64,000 bases of DNA, from the NCBI GenBank assembly GCA_050298055.1, contig JBNKTL010000013.1, positions 5,979 to 69,978 of the forward strand. The letters are read 5' to 3'. The position numbers are program-made. The DNA is from Spirochaetota bacterium (GTDB taxonomy: Bacteria; Spirochaetota; UBA4802; UBA5550). Shown piece after piece: positions 39,001-48,000 of the stretch; within the stretch, counting starts at the first letter, position 1; each line of letters begins with the position of its first letter.

Positions 39001-42000
39001 TCTCATCCATTCCCTCTTTTTGTCAACGACAAATATATTTAACTCTGTGAAAAGATCATGGCCGCGCCGTAGGCCACGGTAAATTGAGGGGACGGCAACA
39101 CATGAACATGTGTAAGCAGTTCATTTTCAATGCACCGGACCAGTCCCGGGTTCATGGCAGGCCCCCCGTCAATATAGATATTTTCACCAAGGTCCATATT
39201 CCCGATCATGTTCACAACCCGTTTTGCCACGGATTCATGGAGCCCTTTGATGATTTTCTCTTTACCCGTTCCCTCCGCCAGAAGCGACACGATTTCACTT
39301 TCCGCGAAAACCACGCAGGTACTGTTTATTGAAACAGATGAACCGGGATTCAGGCTTAAATCCCCGAACCGGGAAAGGGGTGTATCGATAATTCTGGCCG
39401 CTATTTCAAAAAACCTGCCGGTCCCGGCGGCACATTTATCGTTCATTTTAAAGTCCGCCACCTTCCCCCCGGGAGAGATCCTGATGACTTTGACGTCCTG
39501 GCCGCCGATATTAATGATCGTGTGGGCCTTTTGACCGCTCAGGAGATATGCCCCGCAGGCGTTGGCGGATATTTCATCCACAACATTGTCCGTGCCGGCG
39601 ATGAGCTTTCTCCCGTAACCGGTGGCAAAAATATTTTCCACGCATGACCTCTCCCGGGAAAGTTCCCGGAGCCCTTCGGATATCATTTTTTCAACAAGCT
39701 CCCCCTGGCCGGGAATTGTGGGAGAGACCTCTTCCCTGAGGATCTCACCATCCCGGATAAACACCATCTTTACGGCAGTGCTTCCAATATCAACACCTAT
39801 CTTCAAACTGTCTTTCCTCCTTCTTTACAGGGTATTTTTAAATGCTTCAAGACGCGTCAGGAGACCCTGACTGTCTTCCTCCACGTAATCGGTTTCAATC
39901 TTTATAAACTTGTACCCGCGCTCTTTCAGTTCTTTTTCAAGAGAGTAACTTTCAATATCATAGGGATGGCATCCTTTCAGCACATGGTAGATAACACCGT
40001 TGATGTCATGATTTTGCAGGGTATTTAAAATTCCTTTGAGCCGGTGGTCGTTGTCCGCGTAGGTGGGACAGATACACGCTTTATGGTACCTGTGAGCAAG
40101 GGCTTTCATGAGGCCCTGTTCCGATGTATCATCGTAACATGCCCCCCCGGGGAATATCCGCTCCGAGGAACAGAGATCGTCCGCGGCAACAGACATACCC
40201 GCTTTTTCAACGAGAGAAAGAAGTTTCAGGTTCGGGAAAACAACCGGCGCCCCCGTAAGAAAGACCCCGGGGGTGTCCGGTTGACTTTTTTCAGTTTTTA
40301 ACCGTTCAATCACGGGCCTGCAATTTCCCGTCCAGGTTTCGATATTTTCAAAGGGGAAGACGTTGGCAATTATTGTAAAGAGCAAAGCGGAGATCTTTTT
40401 CTCTCTTCTCAGTTCAATGAGTTCATTAAAGTCCTTCCATGCGGCAAGGTACCTGTTGAGCGAATGCAGCATTTCTCTGCGCCTGACTCTTTTACCCGTT
40501 ATTCTTTCAAAGAGTTTTTTTAATTCAAAAAGTTCCTGCAGCCAGCGGGACTCCCCTTTCTCACTCTGTTTCATATGGGGGAGCTCAAGGAAATGAATTT
40601 TTTCCCTGTCACAGTCCGCAAGCTCCGGGAATTTCACCACCCAGTCGCATGTTGTGGGGAGTATGATTCTTTCAAAAAGATTTTTATACGAATCATGACT
40701 CTTTAATATTCCCATTGTGGATTTAATCACCGGGCATGTGAGCGCGGGCAATGTTGAAGCGGAGAGGAGCTGGGCGGCATGAGAACCGCCGCATAATTTG
40801 AAAGGCTGAAGATCAAACATATGAAAAAGTTCATGAGGTGACTGAATGCAGAAAAAACCCACAAAGGGCCGCCCGGTCCTCTCCCTGATCTTTTCGGGAA
40901 AGAGGGAATCCGCAACCGTATCAAGGAAGGGGTCCAGTTCATGGATATAGTCAGGCCTGGATTTCAAAGAATCAATCCGGGAATCACACTCCCTTTTCAT
41001 CAGTTCATTGGCATTCTCCAGCAGTCTGGAATGTCTTTTATTTTTTCCCATGCAGCCTTCCCCACTTTTGAGCAACGTATTTTTTTGAAGAACTGAATAT
41101 CCTGAAGTTCAAAAACTTTATCTGCAGAACATTGTCCCCTGGACATGATTCGGCGCACTTCATGCAGAGCATGCAGTCGTCTTTCATGACGTCCTTTCTC
41201 TTTTTTTCAAGATAGACCTCTTTGATGTCAACGGGACACATCCGCTGGCAGTTTCCGCAGCCGAGACAGGTCCCTATGGATTTTTCAAAACGCACAAACC
41301 CGATCTTTTTGAAGATATGCATCAGGGCCAGCAGGGGACAGAACATGCAGAAAAACCTGTCTTTAAAAAAGATCCCGATGACCATGCTGCCGGTAATGAC
41401 CAGGGAAAGGACCGTAAAGGAGAGGGTAATTGAATTTGTAAAATCCAGTGAAAGATATTTTGTTTCTCCCGCAAAGAGGGGCAGGAGGGGCTTTGCCGGG
41501 CAGATCTGGCAGAAGGGGAGAGCAAAATCAGTGTGGAGCCCGAAATTCGCGATAAAAACAGGGATGAGAATCAGGACTGCCAGTAAAATGTACTTGATAA
41601 TCTTCAACCTCTCCCGTGTTGCCCGGGAAAATCCCGACTCCCTTATCCCCAGCTTCCTTCTCAAAGCCGTGAACCAGTCCTGCAGTGTGCCAAAGGGACA
41701 GACCCAGCCGCACCAGGTTTTAGAGAAGGGGACAAAGAGCAGAATAAAAAACAGAAATACCAGCAGGGCATTGAGTCCCCATTGCGTAAAGAAATCGGGA
41801 AACGCCAGCCCAAACCCCATACGGTTCTGCAGTGCCATAAGATAGCAGTGCCCCGCGCACCCGCCCACATAGGGACAGGCGAAACAGGGCAGCGAATGAC
41901 CCAGGCGTATCCCCAGCCGTCCCCCGTACATGAGAATGATGAAGAAAAAATTCTGTATATAAAACCGTAATTTTCCGACCATCAGACTCTCTGCCGGTTT

Positions 42001-45000: not shown

Positions 45001-48000
45001 CGACTGAAATTATTGAGTCCAGCTTCTTCCTGTATTCTTTGAGTTTTTTCTCTGCCAGTTTTCTCTTCCGGATAATTGTTGCAAGTTCAAGATAATTCTC
45101 ACAGATTGAATCAAAACTGCGGTTTCTTCCAAATTTATGGACCGCAATCTTCGTGGCCTTCAACATGTCAACAAACTGGACCACGTTGTCCTCTTCGGAC
45201 ATAAAGACAATATCCGGTTTTAATTTTACGATCTCTTCGATATTCGGCCGCACCAGTGTTCCCACTATTTTGATCTTCCGCGTCAGGGGAGGATGATAGG
45301 ATGTGACCCCCACAAGAAGGTGTTCCGATTCAAGATCAATGACCTGGCGTGTTATCGCGGGCGAAAGGGCGATGATCCTATTGACATTGCCGGCTGTTTT
45401 TGAAACTGCCGGTTTCTCATCCGGGGGGAAGAGAAAAACAGAGAAAGAGACCAGGAGGAGTAAAGGAATTTGATATAACCGGATCTTCTTCAGGTGTATT
45501 AATAATATACTCAGTTTCATAGTGGATGCCGTTTAATATATTAAATTCAGGTTGTATACAAGCTGGACATTAAATTCCATGTTCTCATCCAGATAGACAT
45601 CGGGAAAGGAGGGAAAAGGAAGCGATTTGTATATTGTCTTTACCCCCGCCCTGTTCAGCATTTCATGTTCACAGCCCTTTACAAGCTTTACGGAACCTGC
45701 CAGTGTTCCGTCCTTCCTCAGAATAAATCTCAATACAACAACTCCCTCCTGGTTCATGCGCCGGGCAGTAAGAGGATAGTATTTCATCCTCTGGATTCTC
45801 GAGAGGACCCTGCTTTTATATGTCTTCATGATCTTTTCCACGGGATTTTTTGAGAGGGAGGCGGGCGCCGGGGAGTTTCTGTTCTTTTCCGCCCCGGTTT
45901 TTCCCGCAGGCAGATCTCCCGGTTTTTTAAAAGCACTTTTTTCCCGGTCATCATTCTTGTTATCTTTCAAGTGACGAAATTCATGATGCCGCCCGTTATC
46001 ATTAATGCTGAAGTTAATGAAAGTGAAACCGGCTTTTTTTGAAGGGAGCTCAATCTCCTTATCTGTCCGCCCGGACCGGGGATAGATGATTACAAGGTGT
46101 AATACCATTGATGCTATTAACGCGTAAAGGAATACCCTGTCCCGGCTTTTATTATTTGCCATTACTTTCATGCGCGAGGCTGATCTCCTTTGCTCCGGAA
46201 CTTTTTATTATTCCCATAATATTAATAAATTTTTTATAGAGTATATTTTCATCACCCTGGAAGATTATTTTCTTCTTCTGCGTTTTTTCCAGCTTCTGTT
46301 TTAAGAGTGACGGGAACAGTTCAGCCTCCACTTCATTTCTGTTGAGAAAGATCTTTCCCTCTTTGTCAACGGAAACGATAATCTCCCGGTTTTTTGCTTT
46401 TTCCCTGCTTCCGGCCACGGGAAGTTTCAGGGATATTGCGGGCCGGAGAAAAGACGATGTGAGTAAAAAGAAGAGAAGAAGCATGAACATAACATCCAGC
46501 AGCGGTGCAACGTCCGGTTTAATTGATGATTTTTTGGCCCTCCTGAAACTTTTCACCCCTGGCTTCTCTCCTTATCGTCAAAAAATATATTCAGTTCTGA
46601 AATCAGGTGCTGCATTTCATCGGACCTCTTGTTCACAAGAGTGTCAAAATAATGATGAAGCGCCGTTACGGGAATTGCCACAATCAGCCCGAAGGCAGTT
46701 GTCAAAAGGGCCTCCCAGATTCCGCCTGCAAGCTGAGTCACATCCGCCTGCCCTCCTATTGAGTAAATCTCCTGGAAACATTTAATCATGCCGATCACCG
46801 TACCCAGCAGACCCATGAGAGGTGTCAGGTGCGCTATTGCCGATAAAGACGGAAGCCTTGTTTCAAGTTTTTTTAACTCTTCGCTGCCGCGCTGGTAGAG
46901 TATTTCTTCCAGCTTTTTTTTCCTTGTTTTATAATTTGTGAGATAAGCCCCGGTTATTTCTCCGAAGACAGTCCCGCTGTTTATTGCAAATCCAATAGCG
47001 CCCTGTATGTCATCAGCCCCCAGGAACGACTTTAAATCGTTAAGGAATTTACTATAAGAATTCCCTGTCCGTAAATAATAGAGTGATCTCTCAATTGCCA
47101 CGGCTACGGCAACAACCGAACAGACCAGGATGGCATACATGACCCATCCGCCCCTGTTTAACATATCAAGCATTAAAAAACCTCAAAAGTTAATAATTTT
47201 TACAACCACTCAACTATACAGAGCCGGGTAGTTTCTCCTCATATTAATAAAAAAACCCGGACCAGTAACGCGGCCCGGGGATTCCCTTTTCTCTCCTCAA
47301 GTCAAGTGAACACGCTTTCTTCCCTCGAAAATCCGGTGTTCATCTATACAGGCAGGTCTTCTGGTTTCCGGATCATCCTACTGACCGCGCCTTCCCGTAA
47401 GCCTTGCCCGGTTAAAGGTCTGCTTACAGTGGCTTCCCTGCGGTTTTCGTCCCCGGCTACAGCGGCGGGTCCACACCCGATTTTGACGGGTTTCCCTCTT
47501 AGCTCACTGATGAGAACCTGTATATCATTAAATAAATATTATTTTAAAGATCAATAAAAACAACCTGCAACAAGCAAAAACCGCAGGGTAAATTTTGTCA
47601 ATTTTATTCAGGCTTTATTCTAAAAAATTACTCATCTGCCATAAAGGCTTATTAACTTCCAGGTTGCTGTCATAGCGAGCAAAGCATGGCTATCTGTATT
47701 TAAATAACTGATTTTCTTGAGAAAACAGATCATTACGTCACTTCGTTCCTCATGATGACAGAATGGCCTTTGACTCAAAACCTGAAACTAAACTAATCGC
47801 CTCCGTGGATAATCTTTTGATAATAATTTGTAAATCAAGTTTTGTAATTAATACTTAATTTTAATATTAGTTTGACAAATAAAAGAGCATGAATCAAGTA
47901 TTAATTGAATTCACGGGAAAAAATTATGCCAAAGGAAATACTCACAGAAGATATTGTTAAACTGATCACAGAGGTCTTTGAGGAAAAAGTTCCCTTTAAC

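What a model noticed while it worked through the whole genome (the two positions that open the first line are those of the whole stretch)
39039..47536. Cobalamin-riboswitch-controlled double-cubane-type reductase module in a TonB/Btu operon
One cobalamin riboswitch heads a ten-gene operon that joins ExbB-ExbD-TonB and a BtuFCD-like ABC importer to four genes of no known role: a periplasmic, C-terminally anchored two-beta-sandwich protein (g01449), a YccM/NapH-like membrane polyferredoxin (g01448), an HGD-D family protein with a seven-Cys double-cubane-like spacing (g01447) and its ATP-dependent activase (g01446); the polyferredoxin-reductase-activase trio sits behind or beside a cobalamin riboswitch in half of 65 related loci from six phyla. 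I read the four genes as an ATP-driven, very low-potential reductase system wired through the membrane that reductively processes the cargo of B12-regulated uptake, i.e. corrinoids or cobal [...]
Evidence so far: Gene order, strands and Swiss-Prot/Pfam rows; riboswitch RF00174 at C13:53312-53514 on the operon's strand, 160 nt upstream of exbB, 100.4 bits. Cys positions of g01447 (68, 87, 106, 135, 294, 326/328, 361: spacings 18, 18, 28, 158, 31-33, 32) and of the paralogue g03586 fit the published motif CX19CX18-19CX29CX166-170CX32-34CX32C loosely. Only 1 of 400 other Spirochaetota genomes sampled has a match at E<=1e-90, so the module looks acquired. A profile scan of genome_contigs gave 67 loci, 65 used (two short partial matches dropped), from Desulfobacterota, Negativicutes incl. 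Sporomusa ovata DSM 2662, Synergistota, Betaproteobacteria, Planctomycetota, Chitinispirillaceae and Spirochaetes, 38- [...]
(Added by a program. Inside this text positions count along the whole contig: contig position 5,979 is position 1 of the stretch shown here. "Call 12" and the like, gene names such as g00115 and contig names such as C1 are that model's own, and its searches are not shown. The text may have been shortened before it was handed on; [...] marks where a part breaks off. The agent that wrote the report below was given it as the finding of a first reader that could run no searches.)

Follow-up and report, generated by a model that had tools for sequence, protein, structure and literature searches.

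The report
B12-switched membrane reductase for corrinoid uptake
A vitamin-B12-sensing RNA switch controls an uptake operon that also carries a conserved four-gene, ATP-powered iron-sulfur reductase spanning the cell membrane, which probably reduces scavenged B12-type cofactors and would give this enzyme family its first natural job.

Summary
A full-length cobalamin riboswitch (47334-47536, minus; 100.4 bits) with a terminator-like hairpin heads exbB-exbD-tonB, a BtuFCD-like importer, four further genes, then nikR.

The four genes are one conserved unit: a periplasmic, C-terminally anchored protein with the DUF4198/Zcp fold; a NapH-like membrane polyferredoxin; a divergent double-cubane-type HGD-D protein keeping all six cluster-ligand cysteines; and its activase. 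All four lie in this order in 63 of 80 related loci. Natural polyferredoxin-reductase fusions exist, and a complex model with controls supports binding of the periplasmic protein to the polyferredoxin.

A cobalamin riboswitch lies upstream on the same strand within 8.5 kb in 29 of 80 loci. An earlier, stricter count gave 24 of 50, against 0.30 expected from genome-wide density. Five more loci have one at 10-21 kb.

Neighbours are corrinoid uptake and salvage genes. The window's genome (98% complete) lacks CbiC and CbiD but has CobS, CbiB and BtuR, so the cargo here is more likely a corrinoid than cobalt.

My best reading (about 0.5) is an ATP-driven, low-potential reductase acting on scavenged corrinoids. 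Substrate and electron direction are inferred, not shown. My literature searches found no published description.

The parts
47334..47536 (-). Cobalamin riboswitch aptamer (RF00174)
   Evidence: cmscan 100.4 bits against a gathering score of 31.5, E 6.5e-24, model positions 1-189 of 189.
47256..47279 (-). Terminator-like hairpin (9 pairs, 7 G-C) followed by TTTTTTT. Probably the expression platform of the riboswitch.
   Evidence: Pattern scan; sequence read. It lies 55 nt after the aptamer and 76 nt (counted from the end of the U-run at 47249) before the exbB start.
46553..47173 (-). exbB (MotA/TolQ/ExbB proton channel), 206 aa
   Evidence: PF01618, 102.9 bits.
46152..46556 (-). exbD, 134 aa
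   Evidence: PF02472, 93.9 bits.
45533..46171 (-). tonB, 212 aa
   Evidence: PF03544 TonB_C, 42.2 bits; TIGR01352, 42.3 bits, above its cut-off of 27.1.
44612..45520 (-). BtuF-like periplasmic binding protein, 302 aa
   Evidence: PF01497, 60.5 bits. Best solved relative is a vitamin B12-binding protein, 5ysc, E 4.9e-11. All equivalog models score below their cut-offs.
43651..44622 (-). BtuC-like permease (FecCD family), 323 aa
   Evidence: PF01032, 287.4 bits. Best NCBIfam model is BtuC NF007081, 209.5 bits, below its cut-off.
42869..43651 (-). BtuD-like ABC ATPase, 260 aa
   Evidence: PF00005, 99.6 bits.
41982..42935 (-). Cassette gene 1 ('unkP'). Periplasmic DUF4198/Zcp-fold protein with two beta-sandwiches, an N-terminal hydrophobic helix and a C-terminal membrane anchor. 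The true start is probably downstream of the GTG listed.
   Evidence: No Pfam or NCBIfam hit. AF2 model: pLDDT 85, pTM 0.75. Top Foldseek hit is Zcp 9mhl. VIA-align Z 14.0, rmsd 3.1-3.2 A, about 181 residues across both domains. The family is found in 63 of 80 loci just before the polyferredoxin.
41038..41982 (-). Cassette gene 2 ('pfd'). NapH-like membrane polyferredoxin with four invariant Cys pairs in or near the membrane part and two 4Fe-4S ferredoxin motifs at the C-terminus.
   Evidence: PF12801 Fer4_5, 47.1 bits, plus Fer4 families. NapH models score 61-64 bits, below their cut-offs. Invariant Cys listed. Hydropathy and loop charges.
39825..41075 (-). Cassette gene 3 ('dccp'). Divergent double-cubane-type HGD-D protein. 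The likely start is the second Met at 41051.
   Evidence: PF06050, 220.9 bits. NF040772, 231.4 bits, below its cut-off of 350. PDB 6eno, E 1.2e-40. Six ligand Cys invariant in 22 of 22 relatives.
39039..39806 (-). Cassette gene 4. ATP-dependent activase (archerase), 255 aa.
   Evidence: TIGR00241, 241 bits, above its cut-off of 125.4; PF01869, 167.7 bits.
38559..38969 (-). nikR, on the same strand 69 nt after the activase. Co-transcription is not settled. I found it beside the cassette only in this window.
   Evidence: NF003381 NikR, 171.9 bits, above its cut-off of 105. A nikR homologue was labelled in 1 of 81 gene maps. The one terminator-like site (39078-39057) lies inside the end of the activase gene, and such sites are no more frequent than in shuffles.
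2306..2491 (-). Second cobalamin riboswitch of the window. A companion of the same regulon, not part of the operon.
   Evidence: RF00174, 115.9 bits. These two are the only matches above the cut-off in the whole genome.
244..2157 (-). BtuB-like TonB-dependent receptor behind the second riboswitch. Probably the outer-membrane partner of the operon.
   Evidence: The best NCBIfam model is TIGR01779 TonB-B12, 302.6 bits, below its cut-off of 599.7.

Best explanation
The operon is a B12-repressed corrinoid acquisition system. The TonB energiser and a BtuFCD-like importer work with a BtuB-like receptor that sits behind the window's other riboswitch. The operon also carries a conserved four-gene, membrane-spanning reductase.

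Shown or well supported:
- The four genes form one unit.
- The polyferredoxin and the double-cubane-type protein act as one cytoplasmic, membrane-tethered entity.
- The DUF4198-fold protein sits on the periplasmic face of the polyferredoxin, held by its C-terminal helix.
- The unit belongs to the B12 regulon in many phyla and sits among corrinoid uptake and salvage genes.

Inferred:
- The activase uses ATP to push an electron into the [8Fe-9S]-type cluster of the HGD-D protein.
- The polyferredoxin links this low-potential centre to the membrane and periplasmic face. It has two ferredoxin clusters and four invariant Cys pairs, two pairs predicted on each side of the membrane.
- The electron is used on the cobalt centre of scavenged corrinoids, Co(III)/Co(II) towards Co(II)/Co(I). 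This would strip upper ligands or release the cofactor from tight binders and ready it for adenosylation and salvage.

In clades without the riboswitch, the same machine probably serves other TonB-imported metal cargo.
For: 1. Regulation.
- A full-length riboswitch with a terminator-like hairpin heads the operon.
- The genome has only two riboswitches above the cut-off. The other one heads a BtuB-like receptor.

2. Unit.
- unkP, pfd, dccp and act lie on one strand in this order in 63 of 80 loci (58 compact). At least 9 of the 17 partial loci are cut by contig ends.
- P0017 (724 aa, a cluster of 20 member sequences) is an end-to-end fusion. Residues 2-315 are 50% identical to pfd and residues 323-724 are 49% identical to dccp. 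P0051 (728 aa) has the same domains.
- Complex model of pfd with unkP: score 0.75, best of 3 controls 0.00. This mark was reached by 116 of 157 solved complexes and 2 of 215 mismatched pairs. Those counts hold only roughly because my own alignments were used. The runs agree in at least 92% of contacts, and the partner pLDDT is at least 75.
- The interface is the unkP anchor helix 289-309 on pfd 186-206, and unkP 279-287 plus loops on pfd 63-71 and 150-183.

3. Cluster.
- The six Cys that ligate the double cubane in DCCP of C. hydrogenoformans align with C76, C114, C143, C302, C336 and C369. They are invariant in 22 of 22 relatives.
- The seventh Cys, which is not a ligand, is kept in 13 of 22 (ligand roles from passages of PMC7317905).

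4. B12 linkage.
- A riboswitch lies upstream on the same strand within 8.5 kb in 29 of 80 loci. 28 of these are confirmed by Rfam.
- An earlier, stricter count gave 24 of 50 loci, against 0.30 expected from 336 riboswitches in 195 Mb of the same 48 genomes.
- Five further loci have a riboswitch heading the same-strand array at 10-21 kb.

5. Corrinoid rather than cobalt.
- The window's genome is 98.3% complete. It has 0 hits for CbiC and CbiD but has CobS, BtuR and CbiB.
- 14 of 48 cassette genomes show the same pattern, and 7 of those have a riboswitch-headed cassette.
- Neighbours include BtuF-CbiZ fusions, CbiB, CobQ/CbiP-type amidotransferases, the CobD-type aminotransferase, CobT, BtuR and BtuFCD. 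One example is L067: riboswitch, TBDR, CobQ-like, cassette, CbiB, aminotransferase.
- No CbiMNQO or NiCoT-type cobalt permease appeared among the 138 neighbour proteins scanned.

6. Need. Adenosylation needs Co(I). The named corrin reductases are CobR, a flavoprotein of the aerobic pathway, and PduS (abstracts; passage of PMC7242693).
Against: - A riboswitch shows regulation, not substrate.
- 46 of 80 loci show no riboswitch in the DNA examined. Three clades have none at all: Hyphomicrobiales with two Desulfovibrionales MAGs; a 20-row clade of MAGs mostly labelled Deltaproteobacteria (grouped under Myxococcota in the tree output) plus two Desulfovibrionaceae; and Omnitrophota and allies.
- The only tested DCCP reduces small molecules through a narrow channel (PMC7317905). 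A corrinoid could not reach such a cluster directly.
- unkP has no recognisable corrinoid-binding motif and no conserved His, Cys or Met set.
- Electron passage through NapH-like proteins is proposed in the literature, not proven.
- 30 of 48 cassette genomes do have CbiC and CbiD. CobN-like and CbiK chelatases are frequent neighbours. Cobalt or a metal-free or other-metal tetrapyrrole therefore stays possible in those genomes.
- Known corrin reductases manage without ATP.
- No expression data were found.
Confidence: 0.5

Rival explanations
1. Cobalt, or another metal ion, is acquired rather than a corrinoid. The DUF4198-fold protein captures the metal ion brought in by a TonB-dependent receptor. 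The reductase changes its redox state or frees it from a chelate. B12 control reflects cobalt demand for de novo synthesis.
For: - unkP has the fold of Zcp, a periplasmic metal-capture protein that binds Zn, Co, Ni and Cu in vitro.
- DUF4198 genes accompany transmembrane reductase clusters in 1,500 gene clusters.
- 30 of 48 cassette genomes have CbiC and CbiD.
- CbiK and CobN-like chelatases are neighbours.
- nikR ends the window's gene run.
Against: - The window's genome and 14 of 48 others lack CbiC and CbiD but keep CobS. A B12-repressed cobalt supply would serve no synthesis there.
- The three zinc-binding histidines of Zcp have no conserved counterpart. No His reaches 90% in 37 sequences; the most conserved, H278 at 29 of 37, lies at the membrane interface.
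- No cobalt or nickel permease was seen among 138 neighbour proteins.
- nikR is beside the cassette in 1 of 81 maps only.
Confidence: 0.15
2. The module supports an Hmu-like system that takes metal out of imported metallo-tetrapyrroles, such as heme or cobalt porphyrinoids. The reductase supplies electrons to a CobN/HmuS-type dechelatase or to metal release in general.
For: - A CobN-like protein of about 1,300 aa lies on the same strand within 9 kb in 13 of 80 loci. It often comes with DUF2162, MotA-like and DUF2149 genes.
- The gene set resembles hmuSTUV as I recall it; the paper's passages do not name the families of HmuT, HmuU and HmuV. HmuS is a heme dechelatase of the CobN/ChlH family (PMC12583661, passages).
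- The one cassette-adjacent TBDR tested scores best with the TonB-hemin model.
- FeoB-like genes lie in 3 loci.
Against: - The window and most riboswitch-headed loci have no CobN-like gene.
- B12 control and BtuF-CbiZ, CbiB and CobT neighbours point to keeping corrinoids, not dismantling them.
- Removing cobalt from a corrin has no known enzymatic precedent (recalled, not from a call).
Confidence: 0.1
3. The module is a B12-sparing enzyme. It does, without B12, a job that a B12-dependent enzyme does when the vitamin is plentiful, as with metE or class III ribonucleotide reductase. On this reading it has nothing to do with the cargo.
For: - B12 riboswitches do control B12-independent isozymes (established knowledge, recalled).
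- The physiological substrates of the DCCP family are unknown.
Against: - The unit always includes an exported, membrane-anchored protein and a membrane protein.
- A TonB-dependent receptor lies on the same strand within 9 kb in 40 of 80 loci.
- The unit is embedded inside salvage operons.
- Cassette clades without a riboswitch still keep the TBDR and ExbBD-TonB context.
Confidence: 0.1
4. Electrons run inwards. The polyferredoxin only feeds membrane-derived or ferredoxin-derived electrons to the activase and reductase. The reductase then acts on a cytoplasmic small molecule released or needed during salvage, for example cyanide or another upper ligand, or a corrinoid held by a cytoplasmic carrier. 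The periplasmic protein is an anchor or sensor.
For: - The fusion puts the reductase directly after the ferredoxin domain on the cytoplasmic side.
- The tested DCCP reduces small molecules and is inhibited by cyanide and CO.
- The conserved residues of unkP cluster at the contact with pfd rather than in an obvious pocket.
Against: - Four invariant Cys lie in loops predicted to face the periplasm, under the unkP domain. These would be unexplained.
- The DUF4198 fold is known from periplasmic metal handling.
Confidence: 0.15

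Closest known systems
DCCP / DCCP-R of Carboxydothermus hydrogenoformans (double-cubane [8Fe-9S] protein and its ATP-dependent reductase; PDB 6ENO, 7YYL)
   Same: - HGD-D fold, best solved relative at E 1.2e-40.
- All six cluster-ligand Cys are kept.
- An adjacent archerase-type activase.
   Different: - About 30% identity, and below the NF040772 cut-off (231 against 350). A paralogue elsewhere in the genome passes it at 490 bits.
- The seventh Cys is variable across the subfamily.
- Always partnered with, and sometimes fused to, a membrane polyferredoxin and a periplasmic protein.
- Under B12 control.
- The natural substrate of DCCP is unknown.
NapH / NosR / PceC-type (PF12801) membrane iron-sulfur proteins
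   Same: - Fer4_5 membrane part with CxxCP/CxxxCP motifs and two C-terminal 4Fe-4S motifs.
- The family is proposed to carry electrons across the membrane to periplasmic partners (passages of 10.1101/2021.01.07.425746).
   Different: - Scores far below the NapH equivalog cut-offs.
- No FMN-binding domain. The periplasmic partner is a DUF4198-fold protein.
- The cytoplasmic partner is an ATP-driven reductase instead of the quinol pool.
Zcp of Neisseria gonorrhoeae (DUF4198, PDB 9MHL)
   Same: - Two-domain beta-sandwich fold: Z 14.0, rmsd 3.1-3.2 A, about 181 residues.
- Periplasmic location.
- Linked to TonB-dependent metal uptake.
   Different: - 8-10% identity, and no Pfam DUF4198 hit for the window protein; 3 of 37 relatives match weakly.
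- The His triad is not conserved.
- A C-terminal membrane anchor with a conserved HRSR motif contacts the polyferredoxin.
Corrin reductases CobR and PduS, and the ATP-dependent reductive activators of corrinoid enzymes (RACo/RACE)
   Same: The proposed chemistry is the same: Co(II) to Co(I) on a corrinoid before adenosylation or reactivation. RACo shows that cells do spend ATP on this step. Sources: abstracts; passage. A RACo gene lies in locus L011.
   Different: - No sequence relation to CobR or PduS.
- Those enzymes are soluble.
- The link of the present module to corrinoid reduction is inference only.
BtuB-BtuFCD with ExbB-ExbD-TonB (E. coli type B12 uptake)
   Same: All parts are present and riboswitch-controlled, split over two transcription units in the window.
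   Different: - Every equivalog model is missed.
- Four extra genes are co-transcribed with the importer.
Hmu heme system of Bacteroidota (HmuY, R, S, T, U, V)
   Same: In 13 of 80 related loci the cassette lies on the same strand within 9 kb of a CobN/HmuS-type protein; separately, a TonB-dependent receptor is so placed in 40 of 80 loci. DUF2162, MotA-like and DUF2149 genes often accompany them (HmuS role).
   Different: - Not present in the window.
- B12-regulated instead of heme- or iron-regulated.
- Accompanied by BtuF-CbiZ.
CcoG/FixG cupric reductase (recalled from memory, not from any call)
   Same: As I recall it, a Fer4_5-type membrane polyferredoxin joined to a periplasmic beta-sandwich domain that reduces a metal for delivery.
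   Different: - One polypeptide.
- No ATP-driven partner.
- Acts on copper.
- The similarity was not tested here.

Membership tests
Cobalamin riboswitch (RF00174) | Score at or above Rfam's gathering score over the whole model | tested here: met
   100.4 bits against 31.5, model positions 1-189 of 189.
Cobalamin riboswitch (RF00174) | An expression platform that can switch the downstream genes | tested here: met
   Terminator-like hairpin 47279-47256 with a U-run, between the aptamer and exbB. This is a pattern match only.
Cobalamin riboswitch (RF00174) | Binds a corrinoid and represses expression | not testable with these tools
   Needs in-line probing or a reporter assay.
Double-cubane cluster protein (DCCP, NF040772) | HGD-D fold with the six Cys that ligate the [8Fe-9S] cluster | tested here: met
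   PF06050, 220.9 bits. The Cys align to those of 6eno. They are invariant in 22 of 22 relatives. Ligand roles come from PMC7317905.
Double-cubane cluster protein (DCCP, NF040772) | Seventh, non-ligand Cys of the 7-Cys motif | tested here: inconclusive
   Present in the window protein (C95) but kept in only 13 of 22 relatives. The review describes a 'class III' that also lacks it.
Double-cubane cluster protein (DCCP, NF040772) | Score above the curated NCBIfam cut-off | tested here: not met
   231.4 bits against 350. A paralogue on contig C17 scores 489.7.
Double-cubane cluster protein (DCCP, NF040772) | Adjacent ATP-dependent archerase or activase | tested here: met
   TIGR00241, 241 bits against 125.4, in the next gene. 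An adjacent activase is present in 69 of 75 loci with room for one.
Double-cubane cluster protein (DCCP, NF040772) | Holds an [8Fe-9S] cluster and reduces a substrate with ATP | not testable with these tools
   Needs anaerobic purification, spectroscopy and an activity assay.
2-hydroxyacyl-CoA dehydratase / benzoyl-CoA reductase | Two different HGD-D type subunits (alpha/beta, or BcrB/C) encoded together | tested here: not met
   One HGD-D gene only in the operon. HadC and Bzd/Bcr models score 48-97 bits against cut-offs of 421-700.
NapH / NosR-type polyferredoxin (PF12801) | Fer4_5 membrane domain plus two 4Fe-4S motifs | tested here: met
   PF12801, 47.1 bits against 22. The 8 ferredoxin Cys are invariant in 36 of 36 sequences.
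NapH / NosR-type polyferredoxin (PF12801) | Equivalog-level match to NapH | tested here: not met
   NF007013, 63.9 bits against 234; TIGR02163, 61.1 bits against 213.
DUF4198 / Zcp | Pfam PF10670 match | tested here: not met
   No hit for the window protein. 3 of 37 relatives match weakly, best E 4.8e-5, below the cut-off. A profile search against PDB sequences found nothing at E up to 1.
DUF4198 / Zcp | Two-domain beta-sandwich fold | tested here: met
   Foldseek top hits are Zcp, E 5e-6, TM 0.51-0.53. VIA-align Z 14.0 against 7.2 for the next fold. The comparison rests on a predicted model.
DUF4198 / Zcp | Three-histidine metal site | tested here: not met
   No invariant or near-invariant His in 37 sequences. 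The best conserved, H278 (29 of 37), lies at the membrane interface. Residue-level structural equivalence was not computed.
BtuFCD vitamin B12 ABC importer | Binding protein, FecCD permease and ABC ATPase encoded together | tested here: met
   PF01497, PF01032 and PF00005 in three adjacent genes.
BtuFCD vitamin B12 ABC importer | Equivalog-level match or shown B12 specificity | tested here: inconclusive
   BtuF, BtuC and BtuD models all score below their cut-offs, and heme or siderophore models score similarly. The best solved relative of the binding protein is a B12-binding protein.

The most novel reading that the evidence does not exclude
The four genes build an ATP-driven 'electron export' machine. 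The path runs from the archerase to the double-cubane cluster, then through the polyferredoxin's Cys-ligated centres on both membrane faces, to a periplasmic cap protein. The machine delivers electrons of very low potential to TonB-imported corrinoids. This would make Co(I) or strip inert upper ligands outside the cytoplasm. In loci without BtuFCD it may even take the place of a conventional importer. That would be the first physiological role for the double-cubane family and a dedicated anaerobic corrin reductase.
Probability: 0.22. Interest if true: 0.9.

Novelty: new variant of a known kind. Interest (0 to 1): 0.72.

Why it matters
Double-cubane proteins are nitrogenase-like, ATP-driven reductases. 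Their natural substrates are unknown.

Here one subfamily is tied to three things:
- a defined membrane complex, through gene order, natural fusions and a modelled interface;
- the B12 regulon, through riboswitches in eight phyla by record label;
- corrinoid uptake and salvage, through its neighbours and through the metabolism of its hosts.

This turns 'function unknown' into a short list of bench tests: corrinoid redox state, uptake, and growth on different corrinoid forms.

It may also fill a gap. Anaerobes and corrinoid scavengers must obtain Co(I) corrinoids for adenosylation, and the corrin reductases named in the papers I read are a flavoprotein of the aerobic pathway and PduS.

Corrinoid exchange shapes anaerobic communities, so an extra, widespread uptake component matters for predicting who can use which corrinoid.

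Tried and rejected
- **Covariance model.** I used nhmmer with the same alignment and checked its hits with Rfam instead. nhmmer found every Rfam hit.
- **Rfam miss.** Rfam's default filters missed one riboswitch with a 175-nt insertion (L009). It was recovered at 49 bits with laxer filters.
- **Greedy ORF caller.** My first caller lost cassette genes to antisense frames and undercounted them. Counts were redone with profile HMMs on all stop-to-stop frames.
- **Sequence searches for unkP.** Pfam and NCBIfam gave nothing. A profile search against PDB sequences gave nothing at E up to 1. The ESM Atlas gave mostly 'hypothetical protein' clusters and one DUF4198 cluster at 0.88, which is a lead only.
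- **Expression.** No RNA holder was listed for the operon: 3 runs of one study, typed 'DNA?' (type guessed).
- **Literature.** No paper links double-cubane or HGD-D proteins with cobalamin riboswitches or TonB. Searches were 'double-cubane' or 'cobalamin riboswitch'; 'riboswitch' + '2-hydroxyglutaryl-CoA dehydratase' + 'TonB'; and 'corrinoid' + '2-hydroxyacyl-CoA dehydratase' + 'riboswitch'. The riboswitch-regulon survey PMC3766115 holds none of the terms dehydratase, activase, ferredoxin, CobN or chelatase in its main text. Its supplements were not read.
- **P. gingivalis hmu operon behind a B12 riboswitch.** Rejected. The riboswitch there precedes a BtuB homologue.
- **L038 extension.** Extending L038 to a riboswitch 15 kb away was dropped. 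The contig fetched was not the locus's contig (53,156 nt against 20,762 nt).
- **nikR as a clue to nickel or cobalt.** It lies beside the cassette in this window only. Whether it is co-transcribed could not be settled.
- **Earlier notes of this scan.** Look-ups by place and by sequence gave nothing.

Full report
**What is in the window**

A cobalamin riboswitch lies at 47334-47536 on the minus strand (RF00174, 100.4 bits, E 6.5e-24, all 189 model positions). A terminator-like hairpin follows 55 nt behind it: 9 pairs, 7 of them G-C, then TTTTTTT, at 47279-47256. Another terminator-like site just upstream of the aptamer (47587-47564) suggests that a new transcription unit starts here.

The genes that follow on the same strand abut or overlap. 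In order they are:
- exbB, exbD and tonB;
- a Peripla_BP_2 binding protein, a FecCD permease and an ABC ATPase;
- a 317-aa protein with no family hit;
- a 314-aa Fer4_5/NapH-like polyferredoxin;
- a 416-aa HGD-D protein;
- a 255-aa activase.

After a 69-nt gap, nikR lies on the same strand (NF003381, 171.9 bits). The scan for a terminator or promoter in that gap was uninformative.

The whole genome has only two cobalamin riboswitches above the family cut-off, and both are in this window. The other (2306-2491, minus) heads a 637-aa TonB-dependent receptor whose best model is the B12 receptor BtuB (TIGR01779, 302.6 bits, below its cut-off). The strong B12-sensing RNAs of this organism therefore control an outer-membrane receptor and the energiser-importer-cassette operon.

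**The reductase**

The best solved relative of the HGD-D protein is the double-cubane cluster protein of Carboxydothermus hydrogenoformans (6eno, E 1.2e-40, residues 66-413). In that protein six cysteines ligate the [8Fe-9S] cluster, and a seventh (Cys94) only lies beside it (passages of PMC7317905).

The six ligands align with C76, C114, C143, C302, C336 and C369 of the window protein. They are invariant in 22 of 22 aligned relatives. The seventh position (C95) is kept in 13 of 22.

The protein scores 231 bits on NCBIfam's double-cubane model, below the cut-off of 350. A paralogue on another contig scores 490. So this is a separate, unnamed subfamily that keeps the cluster site. It has one HGD-D gene, not the two that dehydratases and benzoyl-CoA reductases need.

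**The unknown protein**

An AlphaFold model built on 37 relatives (pLDDT 85, pTM 0.75) shows four elements:
- an N-terminal hydrophobic helix;
- two beta-sandwich domains (residues 67-278);
- a C-terminal helix (287-316);
- basic residues at the end.

Foldseek's best matches are the chains of Zcp, the first characterised DUF4198 protein (E 5e-6, TM 0.51-0.53). VIA-align gives Z 14.0, rmsd 3.1-3.2 A over about 181 residues covering both domains. The next fold, single Ig or FN3 domains, scores 7.2.

Zcp is a periplasmic metal-capture protein with a three-histidine site that binds Zn, Co, Ni and Cu in vitro (passages of PMC12663993).

At the sequence level the relation is barely visible. The window protein has no Pfam hit, and 3 of 37 relatives match weakly. 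The family keeps no histidine set. The conserved residues are the motifs YWPQTG and PP.D, and HRSR just before the anchor helix.

**One unit**

A scan of one genome per species returned 556 relatives of the reductase. The best 80 loci were kept.

I searched all stop-to-stop frames with profile HMMs. The periplasmic protein, polyferredoxin, reductase and activase lie on one strand in this order in 63 of 80 loci, and 58 of these are compact. Of the 17 partial loci, at least 9 are cut by a contig end.

The polyferredoxin is well conserved: 38-61% identity to the window, with 16 invariant Cys. The periplasmic protein is not: mean column identity is 21%.

Two database clusters are natural fusions. 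P0017 (724 aa, 20 member sequences) aligns end to end, residues 2-315 with the polyferredoxin (50% identity) and 323-724 with the reductase (49%).

A complex prediction for the polyferredoxin with the periplasmic protein passed its controls:
- score 0.75, best of 3 controls 0.00;
- the mark was reached by 116 of 157 solved complexes and 2 of 215 mismatched pairs, counts that hold only roughly because my own alignments were used;
- the runs agree in at least 92% of contacts, and the partner pLDDT is at least 75.

This supports binding but does not show it.

In the model the anchor helix packs on the third membrane helix of the polyferredoxin. The HRSR region and three loops sit on polyferredoxin loops 63-71 and 150-183.

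Hydropathy and charge place these loops, with invariant C36/C46 and C158/C161, on the periplasmic side. C91/C95, C212/C215 and the two ferredoxin motifs fall on the cytoplasmic side. Four invariant cysteines on each face would suit one further metal centre per face. That is my inference.

**Link to B12**

Rfam found riboswitches in 4 of the first 8 loci tested. An nhmmer profile found all of those and more. Rfam then confirmed every one that mattered except L043, which was not tested.

A riboswitch lies upstream of the reductase on the same strand:
- within 8.5 kb in 29 of 80 loci;
- in 26 of the 58 loci that hold at least 4.3 kb upstream.

It stands directly before the periplasmic-protein gene or before a TonB-dependent receptor that precedes it.

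The 48 genomes behind 50 of the loci hold 336 riboswitch matches in about 195 Mb. At that density 0.30 loci would have one so placed. My earlier, stricter count gave 24 of 50 (Poisson P about 4e-37). Two caveats apply. I chose the 50 to include all positives known at that time, and riboswitches cluster in B12 gene islands. The test therefore shows membership of such islands rather than independence of events.

I looked beyond the held DNA in 16 genomes. This added five loci in which a riboswitch heads the same-strand array 10-21 kb before the reductase. For the most distant, L030, several transcription units are likely.

By record labels, riboswitch-headed cassettes occur in eight phyla: Thermodesulfobacteriota, Bacillota, Spirochaetota, Fibrobacterota, Synergistota, Pseudomonadota, Planctomycetota and Acidobacteriota.

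**Results against a universal B12 link**

46 of 80 loci show no riboswitch in the DNA examined. On a quick FastTree tree, three clades have none:
- six Hyphomicrobiales with two Desulfovibrionales MAGs;
- a 20-row clade of MAGs mostly labelled Deltaproteobacteria (grouped under Myxococcota in the tree output), with two Desulfovibrionaceae;
- Omnitrophota and allies.

The first two clades mostly keep the receptor, ExbBD-TonB or canonical DUF4198 context, and FeoB-like genes occur in three loci overall. The machine may therefore serve other cargo there.

**Corrinoid or cobalt?**

The window's genome is 98.3% complete. It gives no match to CbiC or CbiD, two corrin-ring enzymes. It has CobS, a BtuR-type adenosyltransferase and CbiB. 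It looks like a corrinoid scavenger, for which B12-repressed cobalt import would have no use.

Among the 48 cassette genomes:
- CbiC is found in 30, CbiD in 30 and CobS in 43.
- The CbiC and CbiD absences coincide in 17 genomes.
- 14 genomes have CobS but neither ring enzyme, and 7 of these have a riboswitch-headed cassette.
- The completeness of these genomes is not given, so single absences are weak evidence.

I scanned 138 neighbour proteins. They include:
- BtuF-CbiZ fusions in seven loci or their extensions;
- CbiB;
- CobQ/CbiP-type amidotransferases;
- the CobD-type aminotransferase;
- CobT and BtuR;
- BtuFCD;
- CbiK;
- CobN-like chelatases with DUF2162, MotA-like and DUF2149 genes.

In L067 the order is riboswitch, receptor, CobQ-like, cassette, CbiB, aminotransferase. 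No CbiMNQO or NiCoT-type permease was seen.

**Mechanism**

The activase family couples ATP hydrolysis to electron injection into its partner's cluster (PMC7317905). This is family knowledge.

I infer that this low-potential centre, tethered to the membrane by the polyferredoxin, acts on the cobalt of scavenged corrinoids. The site could be the periplasmic face under the DUF4198-fold cap, or the point where the corrinoid enters the cytoplasm.

Adenosylation and the salvage enzymes need Co(I). The corrin reductases named in the papers I read are the aerobic-pathway flavoprotein CobR and PduS (abstracts; passage of PMC7242693). ATP-driven reduction of corrinoid cobalt is known from the activators of corrinoid enzymes (abstract of PMC7317905 in the listing).

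Several points weigh against this reading:
- The tested double-cubane protein takes only small molecules through a narrow channel.
- The cap protein has no recognisable corrinoid site.
- Electron passage through NapH-like proteins is proposed, not proven.

The rivals are set out in their own section: metal ion capture, Hmu-like metal removal, a B12-sparing enzyme, and inward electron flow to a small cytoplasmic substrate.

**Distribution and origin**

In 400 other sampled genomes of the same phylum, one has an orthologue (E 5.5e-134, 51% identity). The other 45 matching genomes have only paralogues at 27-30% identity, apart from that genome's own second copy at 33%.

On the tree the window's protein groups (support 98) with proteins from a Chitinispirillaceae MAG and Desulfobacterales, not with the other spirochaete copies. 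This fits horizontal spread. No test of direction was made.

**Novelty**

My full-text searches found no paper that ties this reductase family to cobalamin riboswitches, TonB systems or corrinoids.

The preprint that defined NF040772 links canonical double-cubane proteins to a selenium-dependent locus and does not contain the words cobalamin, TonB or polyferredoxin in its main text.

An earlier agent of this scan, working on another genome, reached the same four-gene reading. It is an AI note, not independent evidence. I re-derived its claims here.

Noticed in passing
window 244-2491 (minus): A second, stronger cobalamin riboswitch (115.9 bits) heads a BtuB-like TonB-dependent receptor of 637 aa. 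With the operon studied, these are the only two riboswitches above the cut-off in the genome.
   Followed up: partly
window 38559-38969 (minus): A NikR nickel-responsive regulator gene ends the gene run 69 nt after the activase. It is not found beside the cassette in any of the 80 related loci. Whether it is co-transcribed is open.
   Followed up: partly
window 35840-38547 (plus): A 580-aa AAA_15/AAA_21 (OLD or ABC-like) ATPase with a weak N-terminal match to the anti-phage MADS3 model. A 267-aa protein without family hits precedes it. This looks like a small defence-type pair next to the operon.
   Followed up: no
window 48448-48702: A 24-nt inverted repeat, 92% complementary, rich in C and G runs, flanks 207 nt of AT-rich DNA upstream of the riboswitch region.
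   Followed up: no
L009 4296-4661: A cobalamin riboswitch carries a 175-nt insertion in its peripheral arm. Rfam's default filters missed it. With laxer filters it scores 49 bits.
   Followed up: yes
L096, L097, L098, L019, L036, L051, L054: Fusion proteins of about 640-720 aa join a BtuF-type binding domain to the corrinoid-remodelling amidohydrolase CbiZ. In three loci fetched upstream (L096-L098) they follow a riboswitch and a TonB-dependent receptor; several of these loci also hold CobN-like genes. If the binding domain is exported, remodelling would take place outside the cytoplasm.
   Followed up: no
L018, L027, L030, L035, L036 and others: CobN-like proteins of about 1,300 aa come with DUF2162, MotA-like and DUF2149 genes. 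As I recall the hmuSTUV heme system, the set resembles it, but here it lies behind B12 riboswitches. L056 adds ChlI/ChlD-like subunits.
   Followed up: partly
L072, L074, L077, L078, L082, L083: A riboswitch-free Hyphomicrobiales form of the cassette has the order receptor, a larger DUF4198-like protein (about 395-440 aa), polyferredoxin, reductase, activase. In several of the six it is followed by a DsbD_2 membrane protein, ExbB, ExbD and TonB. DUF2946 lies upstream in some. A different cargo is likely.
   Followed up: no
L011 (Sporomusa sp. KB1), 21 kb: Five cobalamin riboswitches lie in 21 kb. One heads the cassette alone, and one precedes a RACo-type reductive activator gene.
   Followed up: no
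L071 17191-17290: An AdoCbl-II riboswitch (RF01689, 37.0 bits, just over its cut-off) lies in the same Anammoxibacter locus as two RF00174 riboswitches.
   Followed up: no
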